Source of the DNA: Candidatus Bathyarchaeota archaeon
GTDB lineage: Archaea; Thermoproteota; Bathyarchaeia; Bathyarchaeales; Bathycorpusculaceae
DNA length: 64,000 nucleotides
Direction: 5' to 3'
NCBI GenBank assembly: GCA_963826715.1
Contig: CAWGYA010000008.1
Location: 128,001 to 192,000, forward strand
Below, piece by piece: positions 45,856 through 59,182 of the stretch. The notes below the pieces were generated by a model that saw only the letters and a list, made by a program, of their open reading frames with translations, searched no databases and was not told where the DNA came from. The position numbers were made by a program, and so were the translations under genes. Within the stretch, counting starts at the first letter, position 1. Each line of letters begins with the position of its first letter.

Positions 45856-46171
45856 TACAAATTATTCCTCGATTGGTTAAAAGAATAGCTTTAGGTAGTG
45901 CTATAAAAATGTTGGATAGAAAAGTTGCAGATGACAAATTAGAGAGGCACTTTTCATTTCTAATTTTTTAGCTGTTTTATTGGTGCTGTTCCTGATGAAT
46001 ACAGAACCTTTCAATGGATAGTTTCCACATTTCCCTAACATTTTTTCGATGATGTTTACATAAAGCTGTTTAATCTCCATGATGAACTAAAAAATATCTA
46101 TCGGAAAAATATGGAAACTTTTTTATGCAATCAGCCGAATGGCATCAAAGCGATATTACGGAGGAAAATAA

Positions 46172-46342
46172 ATGGCTAAATGTCCAAAATGCGGAACCGA
46201 CGTATCGAAGCCAAAAAAGACATGGAAAATGGCAGGCCGCCCAGACAAAGCTGGAAAACGCATGCAACTCGAAATCGGCCTCTATGAATGCCCCAAATGC
46301 GGCAACGTATTCCGCGAAGTGCTAAGCAAACAAAAAATCTAA
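46172..46342 (+). CDS. cren7: Cren7-type chromatin protein, Zn-ribbon form, 56 aa (not in ORF track)
   Basis: MAKCPKCGTDVSKPKKTWKMAGRPDKAGKRMQLEIGLYECPKCGNVFREVLSKQKI has the P.K.W, IGL.-.P..G..FR..L pattern of Cren7; GGAGG SD. Confidence 0.82.
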   Translation: MAKCPKCGTDVSKPKKTWKMAGRPDKAGKRMQLEIGLYECPKCGNVFREVLSKQKI

Positions 46343-46350
46343 AAACGAAC

Positions 46351-46389
46351 AGTGCCTCAGGATTGAGCACTCTCTATTTTTCTTTTTTT
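46351..46389 (+). terminator. Hairpin plus T-tract terminator of cren7
   Basis: AGTGCcTCA-GGAT-TGAGCACT followed by T-rich runs. Confidence 0.6.
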
Positions 46390-46402
46390 AAAATACCCGA
46401 TA

Positions 46403-46416
46403 ATTAAAATCAGTTT
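46403..46416 (+). repeat. Left terminal inverted repeat ATTAAAATCAGTTT
   Basis: Exact reverse complement of 57041-57054. Confidence 0.75.
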
Positions 46417-46511
46417 TTAGTTTTACATAAAGCGCTATTAATTGGCATAATTAACTTAGGGCAAAATCTAAAAGCTAAAACAGTTTAATTGCAACTATCA
46501 AGGTCTTTAAA

Positions 46512-47312
46512 ATGACATTAATCCTCACTGAAGTCTCAAATTTTGGAATAGCAATGGCGGCTGATTCCGCTGTTACAATCCCAGTTATTAATGCTCATGG
46601 TGACCGACAATACAGGGTTTTGATGGGCGTTAACAAACTACAAGTAATTGAGAAATTAAATGCAGGGATAGCCATTTGGGGATTAGCTGAATTGACAATC
46701 GAACACGACCAAAAAATCGATATTGATGTTTGGTTGCGTGACTTCATACAATCTGAAAGGACAAACTACAATTCTCTTTCTGATTTTGCTACATTATTAC
46801 AAAATCGGATAAGAAATTATGTTGACCCAATAGATGCTGTTCAAAGACCATTAGGAAATATTGGTTTTCATCTTGCGGGTTTTGTAGAATACGAAGGTCA
46901 TCAAACCCCAACATTTTATCATATTCATAATGGCAGAAGTCAGGCGTTGGAGGCAAGAGGAACCCATATTGACCCAACCATCATCAATGCAAACCACGAC
47001 CTTCCTCCAAATTTAACCCAACAAGTTTTTGCTCAAGGGCAAGCATATCTAACTCGAAATGGCGACTTTACAATTTACGCTGCGCTTTTTAACCATATTG
47101 GGCAATTCCTGCAAGGTTTATCTCAATATGGTGGACTCACAATACCGCAATCAAGAAACCTAAAAGAAAGAGCCGAATGGTTGCGATTTCAAATTAAAAC
47201 CATGTCTGAACTTTACAGGCTTAGCAACTTGCATCTTCCAACAATCGGAGGAAAGATTGACACGTTACTCATAACTCCGAATAGTGTTGACGATTGCGGA
47301 TTAACCTTTTAG
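46512..47312 (+). CDS. Proteasome-beta-like Ntn-hydrolase (N-terminal Thr)
   Basis: M-T-LI...GIAMAADS, downstream Lys (VNKL) and C-terminal IGG.ID pattern. Confidence 0.72.
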   Translation: MTLILTEVSNFGIAMAADSAVTIPVINAHGDRQYRVLMGVNKLQVIEKLNAGIAIWGLAELTIEHDQKIDIDVWLRDFIQSERTNYNSLSDFATLLQNRIRNYVDPIDAVQRPLGNIGFHLAGFVEYEGHQTPTFYHIHNGRSQALEARGTHIDPTIINANHDLPPNLTQQVFAQGQAYLTRNGDFTIYAALFNHIGQFLQGLSQYGGLTIPQSRNLKERAEWLRFQIKTMSELYRLSNLHLPTIGGKIDTLLITPNSVDDCGLTF

Positions 47313-47330
47313 ATTCCACGGTTCTATGAC

Positions 47331-47606
47331 TCATAAATCACCTAACGGATAGCCTTCACGCTTAATGACCTTAACGCCTTTGGAATTGAACATCATTGTT
47401 TTACTGCTGAAATTTATGTAAAAGCAATCCAAATCTACAAAAACCGAATGATGCTTGTCTGTAACAAACGGAAAGCGTTTCTGTAATCGCTTAACATCTT
47501 CTTGGCTTTCAGGTTCAATAACAAAACCCTCTGCGAAAACTTTGTCGCAAATCGCGCATTTCATGGATTCCTTGATTTCTTTCTTACCGAACCATACAGC
47601 CTTCAA
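47331..47606 (-). CDS. Small hypothetical protein with CxxC motif
   Basis: TTG start after AAGGTG; CAIC and DLDC motifs. Confidence 0.6.
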   Translation of the reverse strand: MKAVWFGKKEIKESMKCAICDKVFAEGFVIEPESQEDVKRLQKRFPFVTDKHHSVFVDLDCFYINFSSKTMMFNSKGVKVIKREGYPLGDL

Positions 47607-47867
47607 TCGTTAACACCTTTATCCATGCTTTTCGGGATGAACGGAACAAGCGGTTTCACGCTGTATTTTGAGGAACACAAACATGAACAACACATGCTCC
47701 GTTCACCTTTCCGCGTCTGAAATATCTATGCAGGGATGCTTGATATAATCGTTATCAAACGAATAAGATGTTAAAAGGCAGATTATTTACACGTTCGAGT
47801 TTTTGTTAGTGCAAAAATTTAAAACCATTATTCCGTATTAACAATTGGGAATCAAGAGGGAAATCAT

Positions 47868-48476
47868 ATGTCTATATCTCCATCTAACGACCAAGTAAGA
47901 GTTATTATTTTAGATTTTCTTCATAAGGAATTGCAAGAACATCCAAGGGATGTCACCAATAAAGAAAATATAGTTCAAGCGTTAGGGGTTCCCCAAAAAC
48001 AACTTGACTTTAACATGTTCTATCTTCAAGAAAAGGGATTAGTTGAACTCATAACTGCAATGGACGGTTGGCATTGCGCAAATATAACAGCCTATGGCAT
48101 TGATGTTATCGAAAACAAGGATTCTTACAAAAGCGAATTTCCTTTTATAAATAATACAACAATTCAAGTGCAAGGTAACAATTACGGCGCTATAATTCAA
48201 GCAAATAATCATTCAACCATTATTTTCCATCAGCAAATATCAGATGCTTTCAAGGAAGCTTATGAAAAAATTGAAAAAGAACAAAGTTTAGCTCCTGAAT
48301 TAAAGGAGCAAATAAAAGTCAAAACAAAAGCATTGGAAGAGGAACTCAATAAAGCTGAACCTGATGCAGGGATAATCCAACAATCATGGAAATGGATTAA
48401 ACAAAACGCAAACTGGTTGATTCCAACATTAACCCAAGTTGTTACCGAAGGAATAAAAATTGCCTGTGGGGTTTAA
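47868..48476 (+). CDS. Hypothetical protein: N-terminal winged helix, helical C-terminal domain
   Basis: IL..L...YL.EKGLV....IT..GID wHTH pattern; own promoter motif and GAGG SD. Confidence 0.75.
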   Translation: MSISPSNDQVRVIILDFLHKELQEHPRDVTNKENIVQALGVPQKQLDFNMFYLQEKGLVELITAMDGWHCANITAYGIDVIENKDSYKSEFPFINNTTIQVQGNNYGAIIQANNHSTIIFHQQISDAFKEAYEKIEKEQSLAPELKEQIKVKTKALEEELNKAEPDAGIIQQSWKWIKQNANWLIPTLTQVVTEGIKIACGV

Positions 48477-48498
48477 AGAAAGGCAAAATTGTTAACGA

Positions 48499-48999
48499 TT
48501 ACTTGTTATTCGATGCGAGAACTAAAACTGATAGACCCAAAAGTCCCATAACTATGAATGCAGCGAGCCTTCCTTTGTCTGCGCCATCTTTTATACAATA
48601 GGCTTTCTCTTGAACTTTATTTGCCAATTCATTTAACTTCTCTTGATTCATGGGGTCAAAAGTAGCATAGACTGTCGTATAACTTATCATTAAAGGAACG
48701 GGAACACCTTCTTCTGCAAAAACATAAATTTCCTTTCGAGGTTTTTTGTGATAAGCGGCTGAAATTTCCCAGTTAACCACATCTCTTGTATCTTGGTTGT
48801 TTGCTACGTTTGCCGTCCAAAATACAAAAACTGCTTCAGAAGCTTCTATTGCGTCATCCAATTTTTTGGGTAAAGGAAACGGTGTGGGGTCTTCTACTTT
48901 TGCAAGATATGGCTCAACTGGAATAAGTTTCAAGTTTGAAACAACAGTGTCGATTAACCATCCATCTTTACTGCTGTGCGCGATAAATATACGAACCAT
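48499..48999 (-). CDS. TIR-domain protein with C-terminal TM helix
   Basis: IFIAHSSKD (beta-A), AI..S..V.V.WT, V.WEI..A (catalytic Glu position) and a hydrophobic C-terminus. Confidence 0.85.
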   Translation of the reverse strand: MVRIFIAHSSKDGWLIDTVVSNLKLIPVEPYLAKVEDPTPFPLPKKLDDAIEASEAVFVFWTANVANNQDTRDVVNWEISAAYHKKPRKEIYVFAEEGVPVPLMISYTTVYATFDPMNQEKLNELANKVQEKAYCIKDGADKGRLAAFIVMGLLGLSVLVLASNNK

Positions 49000-49104
49000 T
49001 ATCTATTCACTCTTGTCCTTGTATGATTAGTTAATGATTTAAGTTTTTACACTACGAAAGCCTGCGATGCAAAAACTTAAAGCCAAATAAACTGAGTATC
49101 AAAT

Positions 49105-49701
49105 ATGGATGAGATTTGGAAAGAAGCGAAAAATGTCAATGATAAAATTGCAATTAGGCTCGCATCCGTTCCTAATTTTGCCCTGAATGTTTATCATCCA
49201 AAACAGGTTGAATATTATTCAAAATTTACTGAGTTAATATACAAAGCATTAAACGTGGACTCGGTTTGTGGCTTCTTGCAAGAGCTTACCAAAAATCTAA
49301 GCAGCGATAAAATTGAGATAAGAGTCATGCGCTTGCCTTCTAACAGAAGCAAGATATTTGGAATTACCACGAAAGGAAGAATCCTTGACCAGCAGTTATA
49401 TGGACGTGCATGGAAAAAGAAACCTTTGGTTGATATTTTTCCCGACTGCATATTTTCTGACAATAAATCTGAGCCTTATCTGAATGTGGGATTGAGAGGA
49501 TACGTTATCAATGGTTCAATTCGAACAGTAATTCATGAACTTCTCCACAAATCAGGTTTACACGAAGAAACAAAGGTTCGCGAATTAACAGAACAACTTT
49601 ACAAGGAGTTTCGAAAGAAACACATTGCAAACTTTGACAGCGAAATTAAGCCGTTGGTTAAAGAATGGAAAAAATTTGAAAAGCAGATTAACTCAGGTTA
49701 A
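49105..49701 (+). CDS. Putative zincin metallopeptidase (HEXXH)
   Basis: TVIHELLH...HEE motif. Confidence 0.6.
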   Translation: MDEIWKEAKNVNDKIAIRLASVPNFALNVYHPKQVEYYSKFTELIYKALNVDSVCGFLQELTKNLSSDKIEIRVMRLPSNRSKIFGITTKGRILDQQLYGRAWKKKPLVDIFPDCIFSDNKSEPYLNVGLRGYVINGSIRTVIHELLHKSGLHEETKVRELTEQLYKEFRKKHIANFDSEIKPLVKEWKKFEKQINSG

Positions 49702-49740
49702 CATGCAAAAACTTAAACGTTAATTAGTTGACTATCAAGC

Positions 49741-50157
49741 ATGGTCTATGAAGAGATTGTGATTTCTGTTCTCGGTGTTGTGGGAACTGCAAGCGTCGTC
49801 ACAGCTTGCTTAACATACGTTTTCGACAAGAGAAAGGAAATAGCGTTTAGAGAACAAGAGTACAAAGAAATGCGGTACAAGGCAATGGTACTCCAAATGA
49901 AAGTATTGCTAAAACCAGACGATTTGAAATACATGCAATTACATAGACCCGATTTGAAGAACATGCAAGACGTAAAAAATGAGGTTGAAACCGAACTTTA
50001 CAACTGCCTTCTATTTGCCTCAGATGATGTAATCAAATCATTAAAACAGTTTATTCTAACACCTAACAACATAACTTATGCCAAAACTGTCTTTGCAATG
50101 AGAAAAGATTGTTGGAACAAGAAAACAAGTTTGAGACCTGAAGAAATCAACATCTAA
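49741..50157 (+). CDS. Membrane-anchored hypothetical protein
   Basis: N-terminal TM helix, then L.AS..V and MRKD motifs. Confidence 0.75.
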   Translation: MVYEEIVISVLGVVGTASVVTACLTYVFDKRKEIAFREQEYKEMRYKAMVLQMKVLLKPDDLKYMQLHRPDLKNMQDVKNEVETELYNCLLFASDDVIKSLKQFILTPNNITYAKTVFAMRKDCWNKKTSLRPEEINI

Positions 50158-50183
50158 GTCGCAAAGTCAACTGAGCGATAACC

Positions 50184-50744
50184 ATGAACAAAATTAAGGA
50201 GCTTAAAAATCTTGCAGAGTTGAATTTTTGCGAAAGATGTTTCCAGTATTACAAAGCATTGATTGAACCAAACATAAAGGAATTTTTAGCTAAACCTCTG
50301 AATGATTGGCTGTGGGTCGAAAACCAAATCACTCAGATGGCTATGAAACAGAAAGGTGTATTCAAAACAAAAGAGATAATCATTCCCAATAAGGGCGAGG
50401 AAGAAAAATTCGCTAATCAAATTGACGCAAAGAAATTTAGAGAAATTAATAGATGGAGTTTCAAAAAGAAAATAGATTATCTTCATGCTGAAGGTATCCT
50501 GCAAGATTTCTCTTACAAAGTATTGGATAAAGCGAGACACGCACGAAACAAGATTCATGGAGAGCCTATTTTAACTGAATTAACTGAACAAGATTATGCT
50601 TTGTTCTCTGTATCAAATGCGATTGTCTCTCAATTATGGAGACCAACATTGTTTGAGGACAAGGTTGAAATCGACTCTTTCCTGAAAAATAATGCTGAAA
50701 AAATTGCTGAGTTGTTTTTGAAACAATCAAATAATATTATTTAG
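50184..50744 (+). CDS. HEPN-like protein (putative RNase)
   Basis: All-helical; F..KI.YL...G.L.......L...RHARNKIH matches the HEPN Rx4-6H context. Confidence 0.55.
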   Translation: MNKIKELKNLAELNFCERCFQYYKALIEPNIKEFLAKPLNDWLWVENQITQMAMKQKGVFKTKEIIIPNKGEEEKFANQIDAKKFREINRWSFKKKIDYLHAEGILQDFSYKVLDKARHARNKIHGEPILTELTEQDYALFSVSNAIVSQLWRPTLFEDKVEIDSFLKNNAEKIAELFLKQSNNII

Positions 50745-51277
50745 CTACAAGTTTTGGTAGAGTTACCTTGAAAGAGGTTAAGCTTGAAAAATTGCGATAG
50801 ATGAAGCACTTTATCGGTTTCTGTTTGCGGTTGCGCCTTAATCCTTCTTTTCTTTTGCGTCGGAAAGCTACGTTAAGAAAAGCATAGAAGCTCACCTTTC
50901 AAAAGCATCAATATCCAGAATTTTCGCACTTTTAACATCCCAAGTCGAAAGAAAACGAGCAAAATTTCTCCGATAAACGCTGAAATGCGGATGATTTGAG
51001 GAGCTTTAGGCATTATGCTATCAATGTATCAACGATTAATGTTAATTGTTGGTCGCTGTCTGCGTTTGAACGGTGCAAAAGACGCTTTATCATGTTGCAC
51101 AATCTGACGCAAAACATCGTTTATGAATCAATAAAACGCATTTTTAATCACTTCAAGCCCTCATTCATAAGCGTAACAGATAACGATGTTATCTTACTTC
51201 GGATTGACCTCGAAAAGTACAACAACCTCAGAAGCGAATCAGATTAGGTTTAAACGATTTCCTGAGCGACTGTTAAA

Positions 51278-51430
51278 CTAATCATCTATTGACTCAATCA
51301 TGGGTTGACTGCAACATTCAGGAGCTTTCTCTCCTTTGCACACAGCGGAATGAGTGCAACATATTTCATAATCAGCTTTCACAATGCGACCGCATTTGGT
51401 ACACATGAATGTTGGCATGTTTTCGCCCAT
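51278..51430 (-). CDS. Desulforedoxin-like Cys-rich microprotein, 50 aa (not in ORF track)
   Basis: MGENMPTFMCTKCGRIVKADYEICCTHSAVCKGEKAPECCSQPMIESIDD; CxxCG..V...CC.QPM. Confidence 0.7.
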   Translation of the reverse strand: MGENMPTFMCTKCGRIVKADYEICCTHSAVCKGEKAPECCSQPMIESIDD

Positions 51431-51553
51431 AATAATTAAGGATTAAAGCCGATTAAAACATTTTCAAAGTTTTCAGGATTTTGCTATCGAAAGCCTGAGT
51501 GATAAAATGAAAACTTTGCGATAATTCGACAAAAAAAAGAAAGAAAAAAAGGT

Positions 51554-51871
51554 TTATTGTGCTGGGGCTTTTATTGCCTCAGAGACGACATTAGCGACCG
51601 CATAAAGGTGATTGCATCGACTTTTTTCGGCTGGTTTAACGTATGCGATTTTGCCCTCCTTTTTCAGCGTTGCCATTTTTGTTCGAATATAGGCGCGTCC
51701 TTGGTCAGCGTCTTTAATGCCTAATTTATCGCTGATTTCGCGCGATGATGCAGGATGCCCAACGTTTTGAACGGCTGTTATAAGCTGTTCAGTTGAGAAA
51801 TTCAGTTTTGCGTTTTGGGTTTTAGTTTTTGAGGTTTTTGTTTTGGGTGTTTTTGACATATGATTCACCAT
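51554..51871 (-). CDS. Small basic winged-helix DNA-binding protein
   Basis: ASSREIS.KLG......R...R..M..L.KEGKI pattern. Confidence 0.75.
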   Translation of the reverse strand: MVNHMSKTPKTKTSKTKTQNAKLNFSTEQLITAVQNVGHPASSREISDKLGIKDADQGRAYIRTKMATLKKEGKIAYVKPAEKSRCNHLYAVANVVSEAIKAPAQ

Positions 51872-52123
51872 ACATGTACAATATTTAGGCGCTGATTTAA
51901 CCCGTCTTGACTGTTTAGGGCTTGCTTTGAGTCTGTTACACTAAAACATCGTTGAAGCTGTCTCGTACAAGAATTAGGGAATCATGGGTTAAGTCTTTTG
52001 AGAATTGATGCTTTAAAACGCGCGAGCGTTTAAGGTCGAATAAGGTGCGAAAACTTTGCCTTACCGTCGCAAGTACCAATGGTGAAATTTCAGATTTCAA
52101 AAATCCAGAATTGCTGGAATAAC

Positions 52124-52453
52124 TTTGGAATTGCGAAATTTCATTTTTACGGAATTCAACGCTACATTATCAAGGGAGTCATATGAAAAAACGTTTATAC
52201 AATTTAACAAAAAGGTTCCTCTTCATACAAGCCAAATTATTCCCTAATATTGTAATTCCGCAATTCCAAAAAACAGTTATGCTGTCACAGCTTCGACACC
52301 ATGATTCCGAAATTGCGGAATTTCACATTTACGGAATTCTTGTCAACTATTGAAAGGGAGGATGTTATTTGTAAAAATGTTTGAACGATATTTCTTCCTA
52401 TATTACAAAACCCTTTGATGAAATGCATAAACCTGTAATTCCGCAATTCCAAA
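52124..52453. repeat. Two tandem ~145-bp units (period ~183 bp), each bounded by ~20-bp inverted repeats
   Basis: TGTAATTCCGCAATTCCAAA is identical at 52251 and 52434. Inverted partners lie at 52124-52143 (18/20) and 52309-52325. Both units contain TTTACGGAATTC and AAGGGAG. Confidence 0.85.
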
Positions 52454-52480
52454 TAAAAAATAAAAAGAAAAAATAAGGAG

Positions 52481-53608
52481 CTATTGTGCCAAAGTTATCA
52501 GCCATTCTGTACCTGAACCGCGTTCTTTATTGATGTAATGATATGCTTCAAGTTTCTTGACTAGTCGAGATGCAGTAGCTTCATCGATGTTGAGATATTC
52601 CGCGATTTCTTTTTGATTCGATTGCTTTTCTCTCAACAGATGCAAAGTTTTAACAGCCATTTCTTTATGCTCTTTATTGTTCTGGAATAAATCTGTCAAT
52701 TCTAAATCCATGTCAGCGACTAATTGCTTTGTGGTTATTTCCTTCTTGATTATCTCTGATGTTATCGGGAAAATGTTATCGCTTAAAGCTGTGGCTTCAA
52801 TGCTTCTTTTTATGTACTTCAAGTAACGTCTGAATATGCCTCTGCTTAACTGTGCAGTTAACAGCAAAGCGTCTTCAGTAAATGGTTCTGTGTTGCCCCA
52901 TTTGCTTTTGTATGCTTCAACCATTTCATAGGGCTTCATCGGTGAAAGTTCAACAGCAATCATTTTTCCGAGAAAGAAATGCCCTGCATACATCTCTTTT
53001 TGTATGCCTAAAACAAAAGTCGGCAAAGTTGCTTTCTTGAACACATCGTATTCGGTTATTATGGTGCCTTCTGTCCTTGTAGCACTTTCCGATGTTCTCG
53101 AATCAGCTATCTGTTTCCATATACTTTCTATGCTTCGCAAGTCCTTGCTCATGGCATCTTTGTTTTTCTTGTTGTAGTCTGGAAGGTCAATGAATATCAT
53201 ATTGAAGCTTGAAAGGAAGGCTATGTTTGAAGCATATGGCAATCTCTCGATTATGGTCTTGCCTTCATTCATGAATTGGGCTTCTTTTTCCCTTAACCTT
53301 GTTTCCCAGTCAGGAAGCCAACGGAAAAACAGCGTCTTGATTCCTTTCGCTTTAAAATGGTTAGCCAGCATTTCTAACGTTCGACTTTTGCCTATGCCTT
53401 GAAGACCTATTACACCTATGAAGCCTTCATTAGAGTGCGATAGCATGAATATCAAGCGTTTAGCGTCGTCAGTCATGTAGAAGTTCTCGCTTGCATCCTT
53501 GATGGCTTCCCCTTGCAGATGGGTCGCCCAGTCGTAAACAATGCCTGCCTTCTGCATTGCTGGGTTTGTTCGTGCTTCACGTAATATTTTCAAACATCGT
53601 CCCATCAT
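52481..53608 (-). CDS. P-loop ATPase with AAA+-like lid and C-terminal MarR-type winged helix
   Basis: Walker A GLQGIGKS, Walker B IFID, lid-like FTEDAL...A..SRG..R, and Q.EIAEYL.I..ATASR.VKKLE HTH. Confidence 0.82.
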   Translation of the reverse strand: MMGRCLKILREARTNPAMQKAGIVYDWATHLQGEAIKDASENFYMTDDAKRLIFMLSHSNEGFIGVIGLQGIGKSRTLEMLANHFKAKGIKTLFFRWLPDWETRLREKEAQFMNEGKTIIERLPYASNIAFLSSFNMIFIDLPDYNKKNKDAMSKDLRSIESIWKQIADSRTSESATRTEGTIITEYDVFKKATLPTFVLGIQKEMYAGHFFLGKMIAVELSPMKPYEMVEAYKSKWGNTEPFTEDALLLTAQLSRGIFRRYLKYIKRSIEATALSDNIFPITSEIIKKEITTKQLVADMDLELTDLFQNNKEHKEMAVKTLHLLREKQSNQKEIAEYLNIDEATASRLVKKLEAYHYINKERGSGTEWLITLAQ

Positions 53609-53916
53609 AATAATTCCTCAATATTTTGTAGCGGAGAAATTACGCAATTCCGTTTTGCTTTTGGGCGTTCATCGTAGATTATGCCTTTCTCGTCAGCAAT
53701 CACCATGATTTCTCGTTTAGAGGGCAACTTCCCTACCATTTCTGTGCAGAGGTCAAAGCAGATTTTATCTATCTCCGATTCACTGCCTTCGAAGATTAGC
53801 TTAACAAAGTTTTCATCTAACAGTTCTTCGGATAACTTTGTGATTGGAAGGTTGAGTTGTTTTGCGAAGTCGTTTTTGGCTATGATTATTAGCGTTTTAT
53901 TTTTTGTGTTTTCCAT
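53605..53916 (-). CDS. Hypothetical protein
   Basis: GAGGT SD; stop overlaps the ATPase start (ATGA). Confidence 0.7.
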   Translation of the reverse strand: MENTKNKTLIIIAKNDFAKQLNLPITKLSEELLDENFVKLIFEGSESEIDKICFDLCTEMVGKLPSKREIMVIADEKGIIYDERPKAKRNCVISPLQNIEELL

Positions 53917-54069
53917 ATTGTATTACCTCATGTTGTTTTGCTTTAGCTTTGTCAAACACTCTTCCCGAAGCAAACGATTGAAGCCAGAACGAAACTGAGG
54001 AGTCGATGAGGAAAAATGACCTCAACCGTTTCCCTTTTCGGGAGTGTTTAGACTTTACTAAAGCTGAAG

Positions 54070-54987
54070 CTAATGCACCTCCTTTCCGTAGCCTGAGCGT
54101 CTTATGGCTTGTTCCACGTAACGTCTCGAAGAGATTTCGTCGGTTGTTAGGGGTGATGGAAATGGAACGTTTGCCGTTTCATTGGTTAGAAATTGAAGCT
54201 GGGAAAGGAGACATTCGTACTGTCGTTGGAGGTCGTGAAATTCTTCCAGATTATCCGAGAATGTTTTTGCCAATTGAATGCTGGGCGCTCCATTTTGAAG
54301 GGTCTTCCATGCTTCACGGTTAGCTTGGACAACGATTGGTCGAATAGTTGTAGCTTTTTTGGTTATCTCTTTCAGCTTGGTTTTTATTTCTTTGATTCGT
54401 GGGCTGTTTTGTCTTTTAGAAATTTCGGCTTCATAGATTGCAATTCGGCGTTTGCGAATAACTATTGCCTTTTCAAGAACAGCGATTTCAGCTTTAGCCA
54501 ACTTTTCTCGGTAAGGATAATCCGATGATGAGATGAGTTCAATGCCGTTGCCATTTTGAATTTCAATTGTTTCGTGTTTTTCAGCTTTCTTCTTTGTTTC
54601 TTCACTAAGTATTGTTGTTAAGCGAAATTGTATGGCTTCGATGTATCCATCGACTTTTGAACGTTCGTTTTCGCTATCTTTTGTTAATTCCCGAAATTTC
54701 AGCGTGTTGGCATATGTTTTGATTATTTCATCGATGTCTTCGGAATTGTTGTAAGTGTGATTGCCTGCAATTTTGTCTCCCAAATTCAAAAATAACTTAA
54801 CTTCTCGTTTCTCATTATCCCGTGTCGCTTCTCCCTGAAGCCTCTTTAGCTCTGCTTCATATTCTTCCTTGGTTGCGTTCCCTGCCTTGTATGCAAGTTG
54901 AACGGCTGATTCGTTATAACGGGAAATGGTTGCTGAGCCTATTCTGTGATGTATTATTACTAATTCAATGTCTTTTTCGTCTGTCGT
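54070..54987 (-). CDS. Coiled-coil-rich hypothetical protein (start uncertain, possibly ACG)
   Basis: Long E/K-rich helical ORF. The track's start overlaps the upstream gene; ACG-ACA-GAC-GAA follows a GGGGGG run and the upstream stop. Confidence 0.7.
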   Translation of the reverse strand, partial: TTDEKDIELVIIHHRIGSATISRYNESAVQLAYKAGNATKEEYEAELKRLQGEATRDNEKREVKLFLNLGDKIAGNHTYNNSEDIDEIIKTYANTLKFRELTKDSENERSKVDGYIEAIQFRLTTILSEETKKKAEKHETIEIQNGNGIELISSSDYPYREKLAKAEIAVLEKAIVIRKRRIAIYEAEISKRQNSPRIKEIKTKLKEITKKATTIRPIVVQANREAWKTLQNGAPSIQLAKTFSDNLEEFHDLQRQYECLLSQLQFLTNETANVPFPSPLTTDEISSRRYVEQAIRRSGYGKEVH

Positions 54988-54988
54988 T

Positions 54989-55189
54989 TTACTTCCCCCC
55001 TTTTTGCTCGAATAAATCAAGGCATTTGTTGAGAAATTCATCATACGTGAGTGCCCGAGAACACAACAATTTAAGCCGTTCAAGGGTTCCCCGTTTGATG
55101 TTTATGCTTGTCAATTCTTCATACAATTTTAATTCCTCATTGTTTTCATTTTTTACATGATATACAATTGAACAACGTTTATATGACAA
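54989..55189 (-). CDS. Small RHH-like DNA-binding protein
   Basis: TSI.I.R.TLERLK......TYDEFL...L pattern. Confidence 0.65.
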   Translation of the reverse strand: MSYKRCSIVYHVKNENNEELKLYEELTSINIKRGTLERLKLLCSRALTYDEFLNKCLDLFEQKGGK

Positions 55190-55224
55190 ATATCGTACAT
55201 TTTATTTCATAAAATGAACAAAAA

Positions 55225-55746
55225 TTGTACATGGTGAAACATTTGTTATCAAAAGGCATGAAGAAATATGTATTAAGCGAGGACAAATCGGGTTACGATA
55301 AAGGCACTCAAAATACGTACAACTATCGCTTAAGAATAGACGTTAGGGAAGCAATTGAAGACCTTACCATGATACTTCAAAAACTGCCTGAGTCAGAATT
55401 GGAAGGTTTGTTTAATGACCGCACAATGGCACCCTTTTTTGAGGCATTGTTTAAAGTGCAAATAAATGCCAAAGACCATGAAGAATGGATACAGAAGAAG
55501 CATTCAAAGGAAATAAGAGTAAAACGGCAACGTTTGTTTAGATTGTCAAAAAGGGTGCTCGACATCGTAAGCAAAGGCTCTTTCGTTTCAACAATTTTAC
55601 CTGAAAGCTCAAAACATCATCTCGGTGATAAGATTGGGGTTCACGAAAAGAACCTGATAGAGATGTTTAAGATAGACAGAAATGCGCTTGAATATGATGA
55701 AAACTTTGCGAATAACGACACAAACAAAAAGAAGAATAACGGTTAA
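55225..55746 (+). CDS. Hypothetical protein, divergent from the element core operon
   Basis: 173-aa ORF converging on the integrase stop. Confidence 0.65.
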   Translation: MYMVKHLLSKGMKKYVLSEDKSGYDKGTQNTYNYRLRIDVREAIEDLTMILQKLPESELEGLFNDRTMAPFFEALFKVQINAKDHEEWIQKKHSKEIRVKRQRLFRLSKRVLDIVSKGSFVSTILPESSKHHLGDKIGVHEKNLIEMFKIDRNALEYDENFANNDTNKKKNNG

Positions 55747-56987
55747 TCGTTACTCACAACGATTTTCCCGCTTGGAAGCGTAGTTACAACCTGATAGCCG
55801 TCAGCTAACAGTTCAGGTAATTCGCTTTCGTTCACAATGCGCTGACAATGTTTGCCGTCAGTACAACCTTTAGCTTTTGGTTTAACCGTTTTAATTTTTT
55901 CCTCTGTTGCTTCTTCCAAAACATCAACTTCATCCTTAATGTTAAGTTCGCGTCCAAGAACAATGGATTTCTGTCGAAAGATTGTTTTCATTTCGCCATC
56001 GCTTAAACCTTGCAGTTTCGCAAGCATCAACAACGCTTGTTTCTTAGCCATCAATTCCATATCACCTTGCTCAAAAGATTTAACGAAAGTTGTTTCGCCC
56101 ATAGCACGTTGATAATCTTCCCTCAATTGGTCGGGGCTAACGTATGCGCTTTCAGGAACAGTTTTACCGACAATTTGTTTCCATTTGCTTTCAGACATAT
56201 AGTTGCTTAAATGGTCAATCAAAAACTTACGCAAACAGTGAAAGCGTATGTTCTTGTTACCGTATTTTATCCCTGCCTTATCAGCTACACGCAGAAGAAT
56301 TCGAGAAAGCTGAATTTCATCACGATATTTCAGAATACGCTCATTAGCATCTGTGCGTCCATCCCTGCTCATTTGCTCAAGAAACATCTTCACAACAGGT
56401 TTAGCGTCTGTGTCTATGAACGGAAAGGCAGTAACGTTTTCCTTTTGAGTGCATAATTCACCTATGCTGATTGGCGATTCACGGTCAATGTATGCTTCCA
56501 AATCACCGCGTCTTAAACCAATGAAGTCGCCAGCTCGCAAGCCGAAAGATTTGCCAACCGTAATGATGTATTTTTCAGTTAAGTCAGCGTGGTCACACAT
56601 TTTCTTTAAATCGTCTTTGCTGAAGCGATAGTCCTCTTGAACTCTTTTATATTCAGTTAATTTCGCCTTTTCGGTGTTTCTGAACTCTAAGCCTAATCGG
56701 TGGTATGCAAAGAAGGAGCGAACAGAAGTTATAGCGACAACGCCTGAACCTGAGCTTTGTTTTTTGTTTTCCATCACCCAAGGTTTGAAAGTTAAAGTTT
56801 TTTTCTCCCAAGAGTATTCTTTGTCTGTTTTGCGGTTTACAAGAATTTGGTCGCCTGTCATACCAACGTATTCAAGAAAATATCTCCACATTGTTTGATA
56901 ACTTGACTTTGTTGATTTCTTTAAACTATTCAACCATTCATTGGTTGCTAAATCGTTTGGAAACCACTCGTTTGTTTTTACGTTCAT
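55743..56987 (-). CDS. Tyrosine recombinase/integrase
   Basis: GLR.GD (R), K, FHCLRKF (HxxR), VGK...SAY (Tyr nucleophile) and a long C-terminal extension. ATG at 56987 follows GAGG; alternative start 57005. Confidence 0.93.
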   Translation of the reverse strand: MNVKTNEWFPNDLATNEWLNSLKKSTKSSYQTMWRYFLEYVGMTGDQILVNRKTDKEYSWEKKTLTFKPWVMENKKQSSGSGVVAITSVRSFFAYHRLGLEFRNTEKAKLTEYKRVQEDYRFSKDDLKKMCDHADLTEKYIITVGKSFGLRAGDFIGLRRGDLEAYIDRESPISIGELCTQKENVTAFPFIDTDAKPVVKMFLEQMSRDGRTDANERILKYRDEIQLSRILLRVADKAGIKYGNKNIRFHCLRKFLIDHLSNYMSESKWKQIVGKTVPESAYVSPDQLREDYQRAMGETTFVKSFEQGDMELMAKKQALLMLAKLQGLSDGEMKTIFRQKSIVLGRELNIKDEVDVLEEATEEKIKTVKPKAKGCTDGKHCQRIVNESELPELLADGYQVVTTLPSGKIVVSND

Positions 56988-57040
56988 ATTTATGTTCCTC
57001 AACATGAACGTATGTCAGTGCCATATTTATACGAGTCCGT

Positions 57041-57054
57041 AAACTGATTTTAAT
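57041..57054 (-). repeat. Right terminal inverted repeat AAACTGATTTTAAT
   Basis: Exact reverse complement of 46403-46416; about 50 nt upstream of the integrase start. Confidence 0.75.
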
Positions 57055-57295
57055 AATAGTTTTTTTTAAAATAAATAGCTCAAAGCTATTTGCAAATTTA
57101 AAGAATATTCGGTCTTTTGAAAGCTAAATATATTCTACAAAATTTTCGAAAACGAAGACCTGCGATGTTAAAGCACCAATGAAAATGGTAATTTAACAAA
57201 AAAGGGGAGCACCAAACCATCATAGATGTATTTATAAAGAAAGGTTCCGATAAAATGATATTTAAAGGCGGGTTAAAAGCAAGGAGTGAAAATAA

Positions 57296-57865
57296 TTGCC
57301 CAAAGTGAAGGCGACAATAAGCATTGAAAACGTGGTCGCTTCTGCAACAATAAACCAAAAAGTCGACTTAAATTCAGTTGTTAAGGGCTATCCGAGTGTG
57401 GAATACCGACCTGAACAATTCCCAGGTCTAGTTTTTAGGCTAAAACGTCCAAAAACTGCAACCTTGATTTTTAGTTCCGGAAAAATGGTTTGCACCGGGG
57501 CTAAATCAGAGAAAGAAGCAAAACGAGCCGTCACGAAAGTGGTTAAGGAACTAAAAAAAGGCGGTATCATCATCATTAGCAAACCTGAAATGAAAATTCA
57601 GAACATCGTAGCTTCAGGTGGACTTGGTGGAATGATAGACCTAGAAAAAGCTGCATATACCCTTGGGCATGCCATGTATGAACCAGAGCAGTTTCCCGGA
57701 TTAATTTACCGAATGGAAGATCCCAAAGTAGTGATCCTACTTTTTGCCAGCGGTAAACTAGTCTGCACAGGCGCGAAACGGGAACCGGACGTATATACAG
57801 CCGTAGAAAAATTGCATTCACTACTGGAAGAAACCGATCTTATTTTTTACGAGCAATCAGTTTAG
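57296..57865 (+). CDS. tbp: TATA-box-binding protein
   Basis: Two repeats of NVVAS/NIVAS, Y.PEQFPGL..R and LIFSSGK.VCTGAK. Confidence 0.99.
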   Translation: MPKVKATISIENVVASATINQKVDLNSVVKGYPSVEYRPEQFPGLVFRLKRPKTATLIFSSGKMVCTGAKSEKEAKRAVTKVVKELKKGGIIIISKPEMKIQNIVASGGLGGMIDLEKAAYTLGHAMYEPEQFPGLIYRMEDPKVVILLFASGKLVCTGAKREPDVYTAVEKLHSLLEETDLIFYEQSV

Positions 57866-58488
57866 TGTTTAACTTGTTTTAAAATTGTTTTGAAACTTTC
57901 TTGTTCAATTGCGCCAACAATATAGAGTATTTTTGCGACCTCACTGATTTTTAGTAACGCATGAACATTCACACCGTTCTGCTCCAGCAGTTCTTTTCCG
58001 CCTTCTTCGCGGTCCAAAAACACAACAGAATCCGTCACAATTCCTCCTTCAGCCTGGATAGCGTCTACGGCGTTTTTAATCGTCAATCCAGTCGTTAATA
58101 AATCATCAATCACAAGTACTTCGTCGCCAGAAATCAGAATTCCTTCAACACGGCGTTTTCTGCCGTGGAGTTTTATGCCTTTGCGGACGTAGAGGAAGGG
58201 TTTTTTGAGATTATAAGCAATTTGAGATGCAAAAGATATGCCAGCAAGAGGGATACCTGAAATACGATCAAAGCTCTTCAGACCAATTTGATCAGAGATG
58301 GTTTGGGAGTATAAATCGCAAATTTCTTTAAAAGCATCTGGAAAACTGGGAATGACCCGCAAATCAACGTAGTATGGACTGGCTTTACCAGAGGATAATG
58401 TAAAGACCCCGAATTTAATTGCACCAATTTTAAAGAGAAGGCTGGCCATCTGGTTCTTTTTGTCTAACCCAATTTTCCCTATTTCCAT
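57862..58488 (-). CDS. pyrE: Orotate phosphoribosyltransferase
   Basis: FG.F.LSSG..SPYY.DLR, RK..K.HG and IDDLLTTG motifs. Confidence 0.95.
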   Translation of the reverse strand: MEIGKIGLDKKNQMASLLFKIGAIKFGVFTLSSGKASPYYVDLRVIPSFPDAFKEICDLYSQTISDQIGLKSFDRISGIPLAGISFASQIAYNLKKPFLYVRKGIKLHGRKRRVEGILISGDEVLVIDDLLTTGLTIKNAVDAIQAEGGIVTDSVVFLDREEGGKELLEQNGVNVHALLKISEVAKILYIVGAIEQESFKTILKQVKH

Positions 58489-58492
58489 TTTT

Positions 58493-59182
58493 TCACGTCA
58501 ATTTAGAAACTTGGTATATTCGGTCTTGCTGAGGTATCAAACACGCAGTTCTGCGTAGATCTCGTTTAAGCAGCTCAGCGAATTCATTTTGGCTCTGGAC
58601 GGAACCGGTGTGGTAAGGAACGGCAAGTGGTGGATTTGTTAAGCGCGCGATTTCAAAACCGGTTTCGGGACTGTGACCTGGTGCGATACCAACACTGCAA
58701 AAGACCACGTCGAACTTTTCCCGCTGCGCCAAAAGCGTCAACTCGGGAAAAGGAAGACTGTCAGCTGTGTGGTACATTTTGACGTTGTCCTCGCTGGTTA
58801 TTATATATGTGACTGGCGCTTGGGCATTGTGGTTACATTTTTCTGCTTTGATTGTGACTCCACCAATTTTAGTAACTTGCCCCGGTTTGATTTCCTGAAG
58901 CTTGTCGGTAGGGATATTGAGTTGAAGTTTTTTAGCGGAGGCTTGGTCCGCGATAACTCTACAACCTGTAGAGTTTTGCAATGCAGCAACAAGCGGGGGG
59001 TCAAGGTGATCGTAGTGTTCATGAGTAACTAGGATGGCGTCGAGCACGGGGAAGTCTTTTGGTCTAATATCTACAGGATCAATAGCTAATGTTTTAGTAG
59101 GGGTTTTAATCAGGATGCCCGCATATTGATTGAACCAAACAAAGAAGAGCGTGTTGGCCTCAGGTATTTTTTGTATGGACAA
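58493..59182 (-). CDS. Metallo-beta-lactamase-fold hydrolase
   Basis: THEHYDH, H, D and PYH motifs; TTG start after GAGG. Confidence 0.88.
   Translation of the reverse strand: MSIQKIPEANTLFFVWFNQYAGILIKTPTKTLAIDPVDIRPKDFPVLDAILVTHEHYDHLDPPLVAALQNSTGCRVIADQASAKKLQLNIPTDKLQEIKPGQVTKIGGVTIKAEKCNHNAQAPVTYIITSEDNVKMYHTADSLPFPELTLLAQREKFDVVFCSVGIAPGHSPETGFEIARLTNPPLAVPYHTGSVQSQNEFAELLKRDLRRTACLIPQQDRIYQVSKLT

What the first reader, a model, noticed from the sequence alone, without database searches (positions are those of the whole stretch)
46383..57073. Non-tRNA tyrosine-recombinase element with inverted-repeat ends and mismatched crossover spacers, inserted at the cren7 terminator
Seen: a perfect 14-bp terminal inverted repeat (ATTAAAATCAGTTT at 46403, AAACTGATTTTAAT at 57041) brackets all the non-housekeeping genes. 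Both junctions share one geometry, TTTTAAW-N10-WTTAAAA: left TTTTAAA-ATACCCGATA-ATTAAAA, right TTTTAAT-AATAGTTTTT-TTTAAAA, with different spacers. There is no tRNA and no long att direct repeat. Known: most described archaeal integrative elements use tRNA att sites with homologous cores, whereas Tn916-type tyrosine recombinases recombine non-homologous coupling sequences into AT-rich targets. Inference: a compact, homology-independent archaeal tyrosine-recombinase transposon or integrative plasmid that targets T-rich terminators. I recognise no capsid, relaxase, T4SS, primase or MCM gene.
Basis: partly seen in the sequence, partly recalled or inferred. Interest (0 to 1): 0.8.

Follow-up and report, generated by a model that had tools for sequence, protein, structure and literature searches.

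The report
Small integrative element in a Bathyarchaeia genome
This is a 10.7-kb mobile DNA element that a tyrosine integrase has inserted at a short T-run/A-run site between two archaeal genes; it is a real, still-polymorphic insertion of a known, fairly ordinary kind, not a new type of transposon.

Summary
The 14-bp perfect inverted repeat (46403-46416 / 57041-57054) is real. It is unlikely to be chance: 1 of 2000 resamples of the two junction windows reached 14 bp. Its 10-bp core is conserved in a sister element in another species.

The arms are subterminal, not the ends.

Contigs from two soil metagenome runs join 46382 directly to 57061. They skip exactly 10,678 bp, and 13 letters fit either side. 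That is the empty site, with one copy of the core.

The sister element (integrase 84-85% identical) sits at a different locus, again between T-run/A-run repeats. A third species has the empty site there.

The 420-aa protein has a tyrosine-recombinase fold, with XerA and lambda Int as best matches. R, K, HxxR and Y are invariant.

Classical recombination through a short shared core therefore explains everything. A Tn916-like mechanism with mismatched spacers is not needed.

The backbone includes an Orc1/Cdc6-like protein next to a repeat-rich 609-bp spacer. This suggests an integrative plasmid. It is a new member of the archaeal "cryptic integrated element" kind.

The parts
46172..46342 (+).
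   Evidence: Translation. Pfam gives only zinc-ribbon hits, and Cren7 is below its cut-off. The gene is conserved in 33 of 41 relatives searched.
46383..46395 (+). attL core: left copy of the 13-bp direct repeat TTTTTTTAAAATA
   Evidence: The joint 46382->57061 has 'both = 13'. The 13-mer occurs 6 times in the genome.
46396..46431 (+). Conserved left-end block of the element (the P' side of attP)
   Evidence: 86% identical to the left end of the G085 element over window 46366-46431. Homology is lost after about 46431.
46403..46416 (+). Left subterminal inverted-repeat arm ATTAAAATCAGTTT
   Evidence: It is 14 of 14 identical in G085.
46512..47312 (+). Cargo ORF, 266 aa, no family assigned
   Evidence: Searches gave no significant hit. 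No counterpart in the G085 element at E <= 1e-5.
47331..47606 (-). Backbone ORF, 91 aa, shared with the G085 element
   Evidence: 75% identical to L035 7805-8080.
47868..48476 (+). Cargo ORF, 202 aa, weak phage and defence-library hits only
   Evidence: phrog_436 E 1.8e-6. PADLOC PDC-M14B E 2.7e-5.
48499..48999 (-). Cargo: TIR-domain protein with a hydrophobic C-terminus
   Evidence: Pfam TIR_2 E 1.3e-6, 29.3 bits against a cut-off of 28. PADLOC ThsB E 2e-4.
49105..50744 (+). Three cargo ORFs (198, 138 and 186 aa), no family assigned
   Evidence: The first two have DNA matches at other loci in other species (G059, G020).
51554..51871 (-). Backbone: 105-aa winged-helix-like protein
   Evidence: Pfam LexA_DNA_bind E 0.003. 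85% identical to the G085 counterpart.
51872..52480 (.). 609-bp ORF-free spacer with four ~30-nt repeat units (two direct, two inverted); candidate replication origin
   Evidence: Repeats D1, D10, I2-I4 and I7. Sequence. 78% conserved in G085. The origin role is inferred.
52481..53608 (-). Backbone: 375-aa AAA+ ATPase with a C-terminal winged helix and an Orc1/Cdc6-like predicted fold
   Evidence: Pfam MarR E 1e-5, AAA_22 and nSTAND3 weak. Model pLDDT 78.5. Best PDB folds are ORC/Cdc6, e.g. 7jgr, 2qby, 2v1u and 1fnn, with E 2e-9 to 4e-8 and TM 0.39-0.47. 74% identical in G085.
53605..53916 (-). Backbone ORF, 103 aa
   Evidence: 48% identical to the G085 counterpart.
54070..55083 (-). ORF, 337 aa, no family; a positional analogue in G085 but no detectable similarity
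54989..55189 (-). Small backbone ORF, 66 aa
   Evidence: 72% identical to L035 15886-16077.
55225..55746 (+). ORF, 173 aa, no family
55743..57005 (-). Integrase: divergent tyrosine recombinase, 420 aa, gene intact
   Evidence: No Pfam hit at E <= 0.1. PHROG integrase phrog_216 E 3.2e-9 and phrog_1 E 5.8e-9. NCBIfam XerA_Arch E 1.6e-9, 37.8 bits against a cut-off of 220. R157, K188, H256, R259 and Y288 are invariant in 13 homologues. Fold matches XerA, IntI, lambda Int and Cre.
57041..57054 (-). Right subterminal inverted-repeat arm (reverse complement of the left arm)
   Evidence: The first 10 bases (AAACTGATTT) are identical in G085, 11 of 14 in all.
57061..57073 (+). attR core: right copy of the 13-bp direct repeat
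   Evidence: Homology with the G085 element stops at 57075.
57296..57865 (+). Host flank: TATA-binding protein gene
   Evidence: Pfam TBP E 6.8e-62. Conserved in 39 of 41 relatives searched.

Best explanation
The interval is a 10,678-bp integrative element of a Bathyarchaeia genome. It was inserted by its own tyrosine integrase (55743-57005, minus strand) through ordinary reciprocal site-specific recombination.

The recombination was between an element site (attP) and a chromosomal site (attB) that share a short core, T7A4TA. The core is duplicated as a 13-bp direct repeat at 46383-46395 and 57061-57073.

The chromosomal site is the oligo-T/oligo-A stretch about 40 nt downstream of a small zinc-ribbon gene, which is probably its terminator.

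In the circular form, the right end (57041-57060) would join, through one core copy, to the left end (46396-46416). This places the two 14-bp arms 26 bp apart, with their dyad centre exactly on the T-run/A-run junction. I therefore read the arms as integrase-binding sites of a roughly 54-bp, partly palindromic attP, not as transposon termini.

The integrase gene stays intact, so excision is possible. The natural population holds both occupied and empty sites.

The conserved backbone is: integrase, small ORFs, an Orc1/Cdc6-like AAA+/winged-helix protein next to a repeat-rich 609-bp spacer, and a small winged-helix protein. This points to a plasmid-like replicon, with a variable cargo that includes a TIR-domain protein.

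Shown: the boundaries, the core duplication, the empty site, an independent insertion of a sister element at another locus, and the recombinase fold with its conserved residues.

Inferred: the cleavage positions, the role of the arms, the circular form, self-replication, and the terminator function of the target.
For: 1. Empty site. Logan contigs of runs X1 (depth 4.4, 92 letters on the shorter side) and X3 (depth 2.9, 115 letters) join 46382 to 57061. They skip 10,678 bases, with 13 letters fitting either side. X3 record 20 covers 46268-46382 plus 57061-57217 with 0 other letters. X1 also carries element pieces at 99% or more, so both forms occur in one sample.

2. Sister element in G085. Homology with the window runs 46366-46431, then several backbone blocks, then 55685-57075, and stops there. 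It lies between different genes: a PKD-domain protein and an Asn-synthase-like protein, which converge. Its junctions are T7A3 followed by the same left-end block, and the same right-end block followed by T9A8.

3. Empty site for G085. Species G007 has flanks 87% identical, and its homology ends exactly at the end of the T/A tract. The two G085 flanks are contiguous there.

4. Relatives at the window's own locus. Left homology ends at 46387-46393 in 9 distinct relatives' loci. Right homology resumes at 57219-57224 in most and at 57258 in one. G012 carries T7A6 at the homologous spot.

5. The 13-mer occurs 6 times in 2.64 Mb, and two of those are these junctions.

6. Inverted-repeat arms: 1 of 2000 junction-window resamples reach 14 bp. 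The 10-bp core AAATCAGTTT is conserved in both G085 arms, and its 9-nt distance to the T-run is conserved.

7. Integrase. PHROG integrase E 3e-9. NCBIfam XerA E 1.6e-9, below its cut-off. R157, K188, H256-x-x-R259 and Y288 are invariant in 13 sequences. The AlphaFold model has pLDDT 78.3. Foldseek best hits are XerA 5hxy E 5.7e-8, IntI 2a3v, lambda Int 1z19 and Cre.

8. Replication module.

9. Literature. Short att sites (down to 8 bp) and intergenic targets (15 of 68) are known for thaumarchaeal integrated elements (PMC6563490, passages read). AT-rich intergenic att sites are known for archaeal prophage psiM100 (PMC8371274, passages).
Against: - No circular junction was seen. One search lists no 'goes back' joint, although contigs drop rare forms.
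- A 26-bp spacing between perfect inverted arms is far wider than the 6-8-bp spacers of Cre/loxP or Xer/dif core sites. The arms may therefore be accessory sites or something else, such as promoter or operator elements. The right arm lies 36-49 nt upstream of the integrase ATG.
- The position normally held by His/Trp before the catalytic Tyr seems to be Lys (K281). This assignment is by eye, not by structural superposition.
- A profile of the family finds no PDB sequence at E <= 0.01, and Pfam finds nothing. The recombinase call therefore rests on two weak HMM hits plus a predicted fold.
- Only two members of this exact element type were found among the 120 genomes searched in the genus, so statements about target choice rest on n = 2.
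- The Orc1/Cdc6 likeness is fold-level only, with TM 0.39-0.47. RuvB and RFC also score well.
Confidence: 0.85

Rival explanations
1. A Tn916/Tn1549-type tyrosine-recombinase transposon would excise and insert through staggered cuts in non-homologous coupling sequences. It would target AT-rich sites without needing core identity.
For: - The target is a T-run followed by an A-run, loosely like the AT-rich targets recalled for Tn916 (recalled, not checked here).
- Two related elements sit at two unrelated loci.
- The Tn1549 integrase is among the fold matches (6emy E 2.6e-3, rank 33).
- In G085 the two junction tracts differ in length, T7A3 against T9A8.
Against: - The two junctions of the window element share 13 identical bases, and the empty site keeps exactly one copy. 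The model predicts flanks that may differ.
- The 'different N10 spacers' compare non-equivalent sequence, and the N10 spacing is not conserved in G085.
- XerA, integron and lambda integrases match the fold better than Tn1549 Int.
- The model starts with helices at residue 19 and shows no separate N-terminal arm-binding domain.
- A published review found no direct relationship between archaeal tyrosine recombinases and the Tn916 ones (PMC8371274, passage).
Confidence: 0.05
2. The element is a provirus of a small archaeal virus of an unrecognised type. The integration mechanism is the same, but the element makes particles instead of being a plasmid.
For: - About half of the ORFs have no family.
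- The 10.7-kb size fits small archaeal viruses (recalled).
- One distant integrase relative (25% identity) lies on an IMG/VR contig.
Against: - No capsid, terminase, portal or other structural hit in PHROGs or Pfam among the 23 window ORFs scanned.
- The integrase has no match in 50,697 phage records.
- The proteins shared with G085 are the integrase, an initiator-like ATPase, DNA-binding proteins and tiny ORFs.
Confidence: 0.12
3. This is a cut-and-paste or self-synthesising transposon (DDE transposase or casposon type). The 14-bp repeats would be its terminal inverted repeats and the 13-bp repeat a target-site duplication.
For: Inverted repeats lie near both ends, together with a flanking direct repeat.
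Against: - No transposase, Cas1 or polymerase hit in any ORF.
- The repeats are 6-7 bp inside the junctions.
- The 'duplication' has the same T-run/A-run sequence at an independent insertion in G085. It is therefore specified by the element, not copied from a random target.
Confidence: 0.02
4. The inverted 14-mers are not recombination sites. They would be inward-facing promoter or operator elements (TATA-like ATTAAAA boxes) of the terminal genes, and only the T/A core would matter for integration.
For: - The right arm lies 36-49 nt upstream of the integrase ATG.
- Both arms contain a TTAAAA/ATTAAAA box like archaeal TATA elements (established knowledge).
- Congeners have a CGGTAGTTTTAAAA box at the corresponding host position before the next gene.
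Against: - A better TATA-like box (TATAAATA) lies between the arm and the integrase ATG.
- The left arm is about 96 nt from the first ORF.
- In the inferred attP the arms are symmetric about the T/A junction to the base: 17 nt on each side from the 10-bp cores.
- The non-TATA part, AAATCAGTTT, is the part conserved in G085.
Confidence: 0.15

Closest known systems
Cryptic integrated elements (CIE) of Thaumarchaeota (Krupovic et al. 2019, PMC6563490; passages read)
   Same: Both are small archaeal islands, mostly under 20 kb, defined by an integrase and otherwise unknown genes. Their att repeats are short (as short as 8 bp). Intergenic targets were found for 15 of 68 elements. They are thought to be unknown plasmids or viruses.
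   Different: The host class is different (Bathyarchaeia). No sequence relationship was tested. The window element has a partly palindromic attP with 14-bp arms and an Orc1/Cdc6-like protein.
Type II (lambda-paradigm, pNOB8-like organisation) archaeal integrases (Badel et al. 2021 review, PMC8371274; passages read)
   Same: The integrase gene stays intact after integration. The att core lies outside the gene, 55 nt upstream of its start. Recombination goes through a shared core, as for lambda (15-bp core, 7-bp overlap).
   Different: The active-site motif here is the canonical R...HxxR...Y. It is neither the R...YxxR...Y quoted for the pNOB8 type nor the R...KxxR...Y quoted for the SSV type. 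The target is an intergenic T/A tract, not a tRNA gene.
Archaeal XerA / dif (PDB 5hxy, 4a8e)
   Same: XerA is the best structural match of the integrase model (E 5.7e-8) and its only NCBIfam hit. Both sites have inverted arms around a central region.
   Different: The NCBIfam score of 37.8 bits is far below the XerA cut-off of 220. The gene is carried on a mobile element. The arms are 26 bp apart, against a 6-nt spacer in dif (review passage). There is a C-terminal extension of about 110 residues.
Integrated elements of Atabeyarchaeia, e.g. Yucahu-i (Valentin-Alvarado et al. 2024, PMC11529989; passages read)
   Same: These are small integrated elements (three putative integrative conjugative elements (ICEs) of 7.9-12 kb are listed) from wetland-soil archaea. 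Yucahu-i has a tyrosine recombinase said to act at a short AT-rich motif (11 bp) present in both genome and circle. Ten of them coexist in integrated and circular forms. The paper states that their integrases are closest to those of Bathyarchaeia among others.
   Different: The host phylum is different. No circular form was seen for the window element.
Tn916/Tn1549 conjugative transposons
   Same: Both use a tyrosine recombinase, an AT-rich target and more than one insertion locus.
   Different: The junctions here share an identical core. No conjugation genes were found and no N-terminal arm-binding domain was seen. The fold match is weaker than to Xer, IntI and lambda Int.

Membership tests
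Tyrosine recombinase superfamily | Two-domain fold: an N-terminal helical core-binding domain plus a catalytic domain | tested here: met
   The AlphaFold model has pLDDT 78.3. 27 PDB chains match at E <= 0.001; the listed ones are tyrosine recombinases (XerA, IntI, lambda Int, XerH, a mycobacteriophage integrase and Phi3T SroF), with Cre, Tn1549 Int and XerD just above that threshold.
Tyrosine recombinase superfamily | Catalytic residues R, K, H-x-x-R, H/W and the nucleophile Y | tested here: inconclusive
   R157, K188, H256, R259 and Y288 are invariant in 13 homologues. The H/W position appears to hold K281. Residue equivalence was judged from motif context, not from a superposition, and no sequence alignment to a solved structure could be obtained.
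Tyrosine recombinase superfamily | Match to a curated family model above its threshold | tested here: not met
   No Pfam family at E <= 0.1. NCBIfam XerA_Arch scores 37.8 bits against a cut-off of 220. Only the PHROG integrase families match, at E about 3e-9.
Site-specific integrative element (att-flanked island) | Identical core as a direct repeat at both junctions, and one copy in the empty site | tested here: met
   13-bp repeat at 46383-46395 and 57061-57073. Joint 46382->57061 with 13 ambiguous letters in contigs of 2 runs.
Site-specific integrative element (att-flanked island) | Related elements carry the same end sequences at independent insertions | tested here: met
   G085 element at another locus, with an empty site in G007. 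This is 1 further member among the 120 genomes searched.
Site-specific integrative element (att-flanked island) | Excised circular form carrying attP | tested here: inconclusive
   No back-joint in the contigs of 4 runs. Nothing related among 124 motif hits. Contigs cannot show rare forms.
Tn916-type conjugative/mobilisable transposon | Non-homologous coupling sequences at the two junctions | tested here: not met
   The junctions share 13 identical bases, and the empty site is clean.
Tn916-type conjugative/mobilisable transposon | Integrase with a separate N-terminal arm-binding domain; transfer genes | tested here: not met
   The model begins with helices of the core-binding domain at residue 19. 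No relaxase or T4SS hit.
SSV-type (type I, 'suicidal') archaeal integrase | The att site lies inside the int gene, which is split on integration | tested here: not met
   The 420-aa ORF is intact, and the core lies 55 nt upstream of its ATG.
DDE transposon / casposon | Transposase or Cas1 gene; inverted repeats at the very termini; target duplication of arbitrary sequence | tested here: not met
   No such gene. The repeats are 6-7 bp inside the junctions. The same T/A core is found at two loci.
Orc1/Cdc6 initiators (for the 375-aa protein) | AAA+ module with Walker A, plus a C-terminal winged helix | tested here: met
   G68, G71, G73 and K74 are invariant in 6 homologues. The winged helix is seen by Pfam MarR E 1e-5. 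The best folds are ORC/Cdc6.
Orc1/Cdc6 initiators (for the 375-aa protein) | Family-level sequence membership and origin binding | tested here: not met
   No Cdc6/Orc Pfam or NCBIfam hit. TM-scores are only 0.39-0.47, and RuvB and RFC also match. Binding cannot be tested with these tools.

The most novel reading that the evidence does not exclude
The window element and its G085 sister may represent a family of Bathyarchaeia integrative plasmids. Their Pfam-invisible integrase would read a minimal T-run/A-run terminator motif rather than one fixed chromosomal site. It would do so through an unusually wide, partly palindromic attP: 14-bp arms 26 bp apart, with the dyad on the T|A junction.

If so, the element can hop between the terminators of unrelated genes. 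It would be a natural, still-active integration system in a class of archaea that has no genetic tools.
Probability: 0.25. Interest if true: 0.55.

Novelty: new member of a known kind. Interest (0 to 1): 0.35.

Why it matters
Bathyarchaeia are abundant sediment and soil archaea. In the papers I read, the mobile elements described for them are viruses and proviruses (PMC10848311 and PMC11697101, passages only). Three full-text searches listed no paper whose title or abstract start was about a plasmid-like integrative element of this class; I read passages of only five of the listed papers.

This case is mapped to the base:
- the boundaries are known exactly;
- the core is 13 bp;
- the empty and occupied alleles occur in the same soil sample;
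- a sister copy sits at another locus in another species.

That makes it a clean test case for how a divergent archaeal integrase chooses a short AT-rich target. It could also be a starting point for an integration vector.

As biology it is not surprising. Short intergenic att sites and cryptic integrated elements are already documented in Thaumarchaeota and Asgard archaea.

Tried and rejected
- Distant same-genus species could not give the exact empty site. Identity is 71-75% over the whole 801-nt left-flank query and up to 84-86% over the gene itself. Most carry an extra ~218-aa membrane-protein gene between the zinc-ribbon gene and TBP. That gene has no Pfam hit. My first guess, 'signal peptidase', is unsupported and dropped.
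- I first suspected that the left arm was merely the host promoter box CGGTAGTTTTAAAA seen in relatives. I rejected this after the G085 comparison and the empty-site contigs placed it inside the element.
- G073 has an integrase homologue 5 kb from the same zinc-ribbon gene. However, its zinc-ribbon and TBP genes are adjacent, so that element lies elsewhere and there is no hot spot.
- The upstream 260 nt of 12 more distant integrase homologues (39-51% identity) lack the AAACTGATTT / T-run motif.
- For two of these homologues, G110 and G095 (20 kb each), no convincing direct repeat was found. The far flank of the G110 locus is a multi-copy repeat, so no empty site could be read. None of the 4 related loci holds a tRNA gene.
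None has blastn or tblastx similarity to the element.
- Read laying listed no back-joint. Parts of the element have no cover in X2-X4. X2 and X4 gave no joint contig.
- The integrase has no tblastn match in the phage or plasmid collections, and one 25%-identity hit in IMG/VR. phmmer and a family profile against PDB sequences gave nothing meaningful.
Supplementary files were not requested; the att tables of PMC6563490 (its Tables S1-S3) could bear on how unusual a T/A core is.
- Complex prediction, build_rna_model and the search for homologous proteins were not used.
I sent the same report again with that field added.

Full report
**What is in the sequence**

ATTAAAATCAGTTT lies at 46403-46416 and its reverse complement at 57041-57054. 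The repeat finder extends them to a 34-nt, 82% complementary pair, 46383-46416 / 57041-57074. That is one of the longest inverted pairs listed for 46000-57400; one internal pair is 35 nt.

The interval has GC 0.35-0.42, against about 0.44-0.47 upstream. The only tRNA of the window is far away, at 9198-9273.

An exact 14-mer inverted pair somewhere in 11.4 kb of this composition is not rare: 196 of 300 Markov-1 resamples have one. Between the two 121-nt junction windows, however, it is rare: 1 of 2000.

There is a 13-bp direct repeat, TTTTTTTAAAATA, at 46383-46395 and 57061-57073. This 13-mer occurs only six times on both strands of the 2.64-Mb genome.

**Boundaries from relatives**

The window is G000:C8:128001-192000. 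In same-genus species the left-flank homology ends at window 46387-46393. The right-flank homology resumes at 57219-57224 in most and at 57258 in one.

These species are only 71-75% identical over the whole 801-nt left-flank query (up to 84-86% over the gene itself). Most hold an extra ~218-aa membrane-protein gene in the gap. Three have a short gap of 180-240 bp. They therefore bracket the insertion without resolving it.

A search of all 120 genomes held for the genus with the whole interval found one related element, in G085. Homology covers window 46366-46431, five internal blocks, and 55685-57075, and it stops there.

The G085 copy lies between a PKD-domain gene and an asparagine-synthase-like gene that converge on it. 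Its junctions read as follows:
- left: T7A3 followed by the same left-end block;
- right: the same right-end block followed by T9A8.

A third species, G007, has these two flanks contiguous (87% identity). Its homology breaks exactly at the end of the T/A tract.

**The empty site of the window element itself**

Eighteen public runs hold part of the left junction. I laid the four best on 45000-58500. These are X1-X4, all Logan contigs from one study.

One contig of X1 and one of X3 join 46382 to 57061. They skip 10,678 bases, and 13 letters fit either side. X3 record 20 covers 46268-46382 and 57061-57217 without a single differing letter.

As far as I recall, Logan contigs are built from 31-letter words, the word length that the run index states. 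A 13-bp repeat could not then create such a join by itself.

X1 also holds element pieces at 99% identity or more. Occupied and empty alleles therefore occur in one sample. This fixes the element at 10,678 bp, bounded by the 13-bp repeat, and shows that the empty site keeps one copy.

**The recombinase**

The 420-aa ORF 55743-57005 (minus strand) has no Pfam hit at E <= 0.1. It does match:
- PHROG integrase families, at E about 3e-9;
- NCBIfam XerA_Arch, at E 1.6e-9, which is far below that model's cut-off.

In the genus, 57 of 120 genomes have a homologue at E <= 1e-3. Only G085 is close (84-85%), and about 14 lie at 39-51% identity.

In an alignment of 13 homologues, R157 (in GLRxGD), K188, H256-x-x-R259 and Y288 are invariant. 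The position before the tyrosine that is usually His or Trp seems to be K281 (my reading of the motifs).

An AlphaFold model built on that alignment has pLDDT 78.3. Its best Foldseek matches are archaeal XerA (5hxy, E 5.7e-8), the integron integrase, lambda Int and Cre. Tn1549 Int matches at E 2.6e-3.

A profile of the family finds no PDB sequence at E <= 0.01. The family is divergent in sequence, but its predicted fold and conserved residues are those of a tyrosine recombinase.

**How it most likely works**

Both junctions of both elements have the integrase-side end joined to the T-run and the far end joined to the A-run. Exchange therefore took place within the shared T7A3-4 tract. This is ordinary reciprocal recombination through a short common core, as in lambda (15-bp core, 7-bp overlap; review passage).

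Joining the right end through one core copy to the left end gives the inferred attP. In it, the 14-bp arms are 26 bp apart. The 10-bp conserved cores (AAACTGATTT / AAATCAGTTT) each lie 17 nt from the T|A junction.

In G085 the 9-nt distance from the right arm core to the T-run is kept, although three of the bases between have changed. I therefore read the arms as integrase-binding elements of a partly palindromic attP.

The spacing is N9 and N8 in G085. The two 'spacers' are not equivalent sequence, so their difference says nothing about crossover homology.

The chromosomal targets are an oligo-T/oligo-A tract about 40 nt after a stop codon in G000 and 17 nt after one in G085. Oligo-T tracts are archaeal terminators (established knowledge, not tested here).

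**What kind of element**

Six proteins are shared with the G085 copy:
- the integrase (84%);
- a 375-aa ATPase (74%);
- a 105-aa winged-helix-like protein (85%);
- ORFs of 91, 103 and 66 aa.

The 375-aa protein has a Walker A motif and a C-terminal winged helix. Its predicted fold is closest to ORC/Cdc6 proteins (E 2e-9 to 4e-8, TM 0.39-0.47), although RuvB and RFC also match.

It abuts a 609-bp ORF-free stretch with four ~30-nt repeat units, two direct and two inverted. That stretch is conserved in G085. I infer a plasmid-type replication module.

Nothing resembles a capsid, terminase, relaxase, T4SS, primase, MCM or transposase. The variable part includes a TIR-domain protein. The integrase has no match in the phage or plasmid collections and one distant match in IMG/VR.

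**Comparison with what is known**

- Thaumarchaeal integrated elements include 48 'cryptic integrated elements'. Their att sites are as short as 8 bp, and 15 of 68 lie in intergenic regions (PMC6563490, passages).
- Archaeal prophage psiM100 uses an AT-rich intergenic att site. Type II archaeal integrases keep their gene intact (PMC8371274, passages).
- Atabeyarchaeia carry small integrated elements; three putative integrative conjugative elements (ICEs) of 7.9-12 kb are listed. For one element, Yucahu-i, a tyrosine recombinase is said to act at an 11-bp AT-rich motif. Their integrases are said to be closest to those of Bathyarchaeia among others (PMC11529989, passages).
- The Bathyarchaeia papers I looked at describe viruses and proviruses (PMC10848311 and PMC11697101, passages).

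The element is thus a new member of a known kind. Its particular features are the minimal T/A core, the wide palindromic attP and an integrase outside the curated families.

**Verdict**

- The mobile-element reading is confirmed, with base-pair boundaries and a natural empty allele.
- The homology-independent, Tn916-like mechanism is not supported.
- The circular form, the cleavage sites, the role of the arms and self-replication remain inferences.

Noticed in passing
window 47665-47695 (+) versus 56982-57005: A 24-32-nt copy of the integrase gene's 5' end lies in inverted orientation 1.27 kb inside the left end (inverted repeat I8: 24 nt, 88%). It also matches the G085 integrase start. A 26-aa ORF at 47668-47748 begins MRNTNMN, like the integrase. 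It could be a remnant of a rearrangement or a shared regulatory or start region.
   Followed up: partly
window 51872-52480: A 609-bp ORF-free stretch holds four copies of a ~30-nt unit, two direct and two inverted. It sits next to the Orc1/Cdc6-like gene and is conserved in G085. It is a candidate replication origin.
   Followed up: partly
window 48499-48999 (-): This cargo gene encodes a TIR-domain protein with a hydrophobic C-terminal tail (Pfam TIR_2 E 1.3e-6; PADLOC ThsB E 2e-4). The neighbouring 202-aa ORF weakly matches a candidate defence family, PDC-M14B. Together they may form a small defence module.
   Followed up: no
L008 737-1393, L019 824-1327; G000:C8:537369-538019: Most congeners carry a ~218-aa membrane-protein gene (no Pfam hit) between the zinc-ribbon gene and TBP. 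G000 lacks it there, and G012 has no obvious trace of it. G010 and G023 appear, by eye, to keep only its 3' remnant. G000 has a 61%-identical copy 350 kb away.
   Followed up: partly
G000:C2:301768-302748: A second integrase of the same broad family (30% identity, 423-aa open frame) lies elsewhere in the same genome. It may mark another integrated element.
   Followed up: no
L213 17946-17968 (G110:C6): An integrase 43% identical to the window's has AATAGTTTTTTTT about 115 nt upstream of its start, the same 13-14 bases as the window element's right end. A 48-nt stretch beside it recurs at 91-100% identity in three other species. The far flank is a multi-copy repeat found in many genomes.
   Followed up: partly
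window 46366-46382 versus L035 7470-7486: The host sequences just left of the core at the two independent insertion sites agree at 11 of 18 positions. Both right flanks read A-rich and then AGC. This hints that attB recognition extends beyond the T/A core, but n = 2.
   Followed up: no
integrase residues about 385-420 (window 55743-55850): The model has a confidently predicted small strand-helix-strand-strand module (pLDDT about 80) after a disordered linker. G085 shares it, and it is matched in several more distant homologues in the genus. Its function is unknown; it could be an extra DNA-binding module.
   Followed up: no
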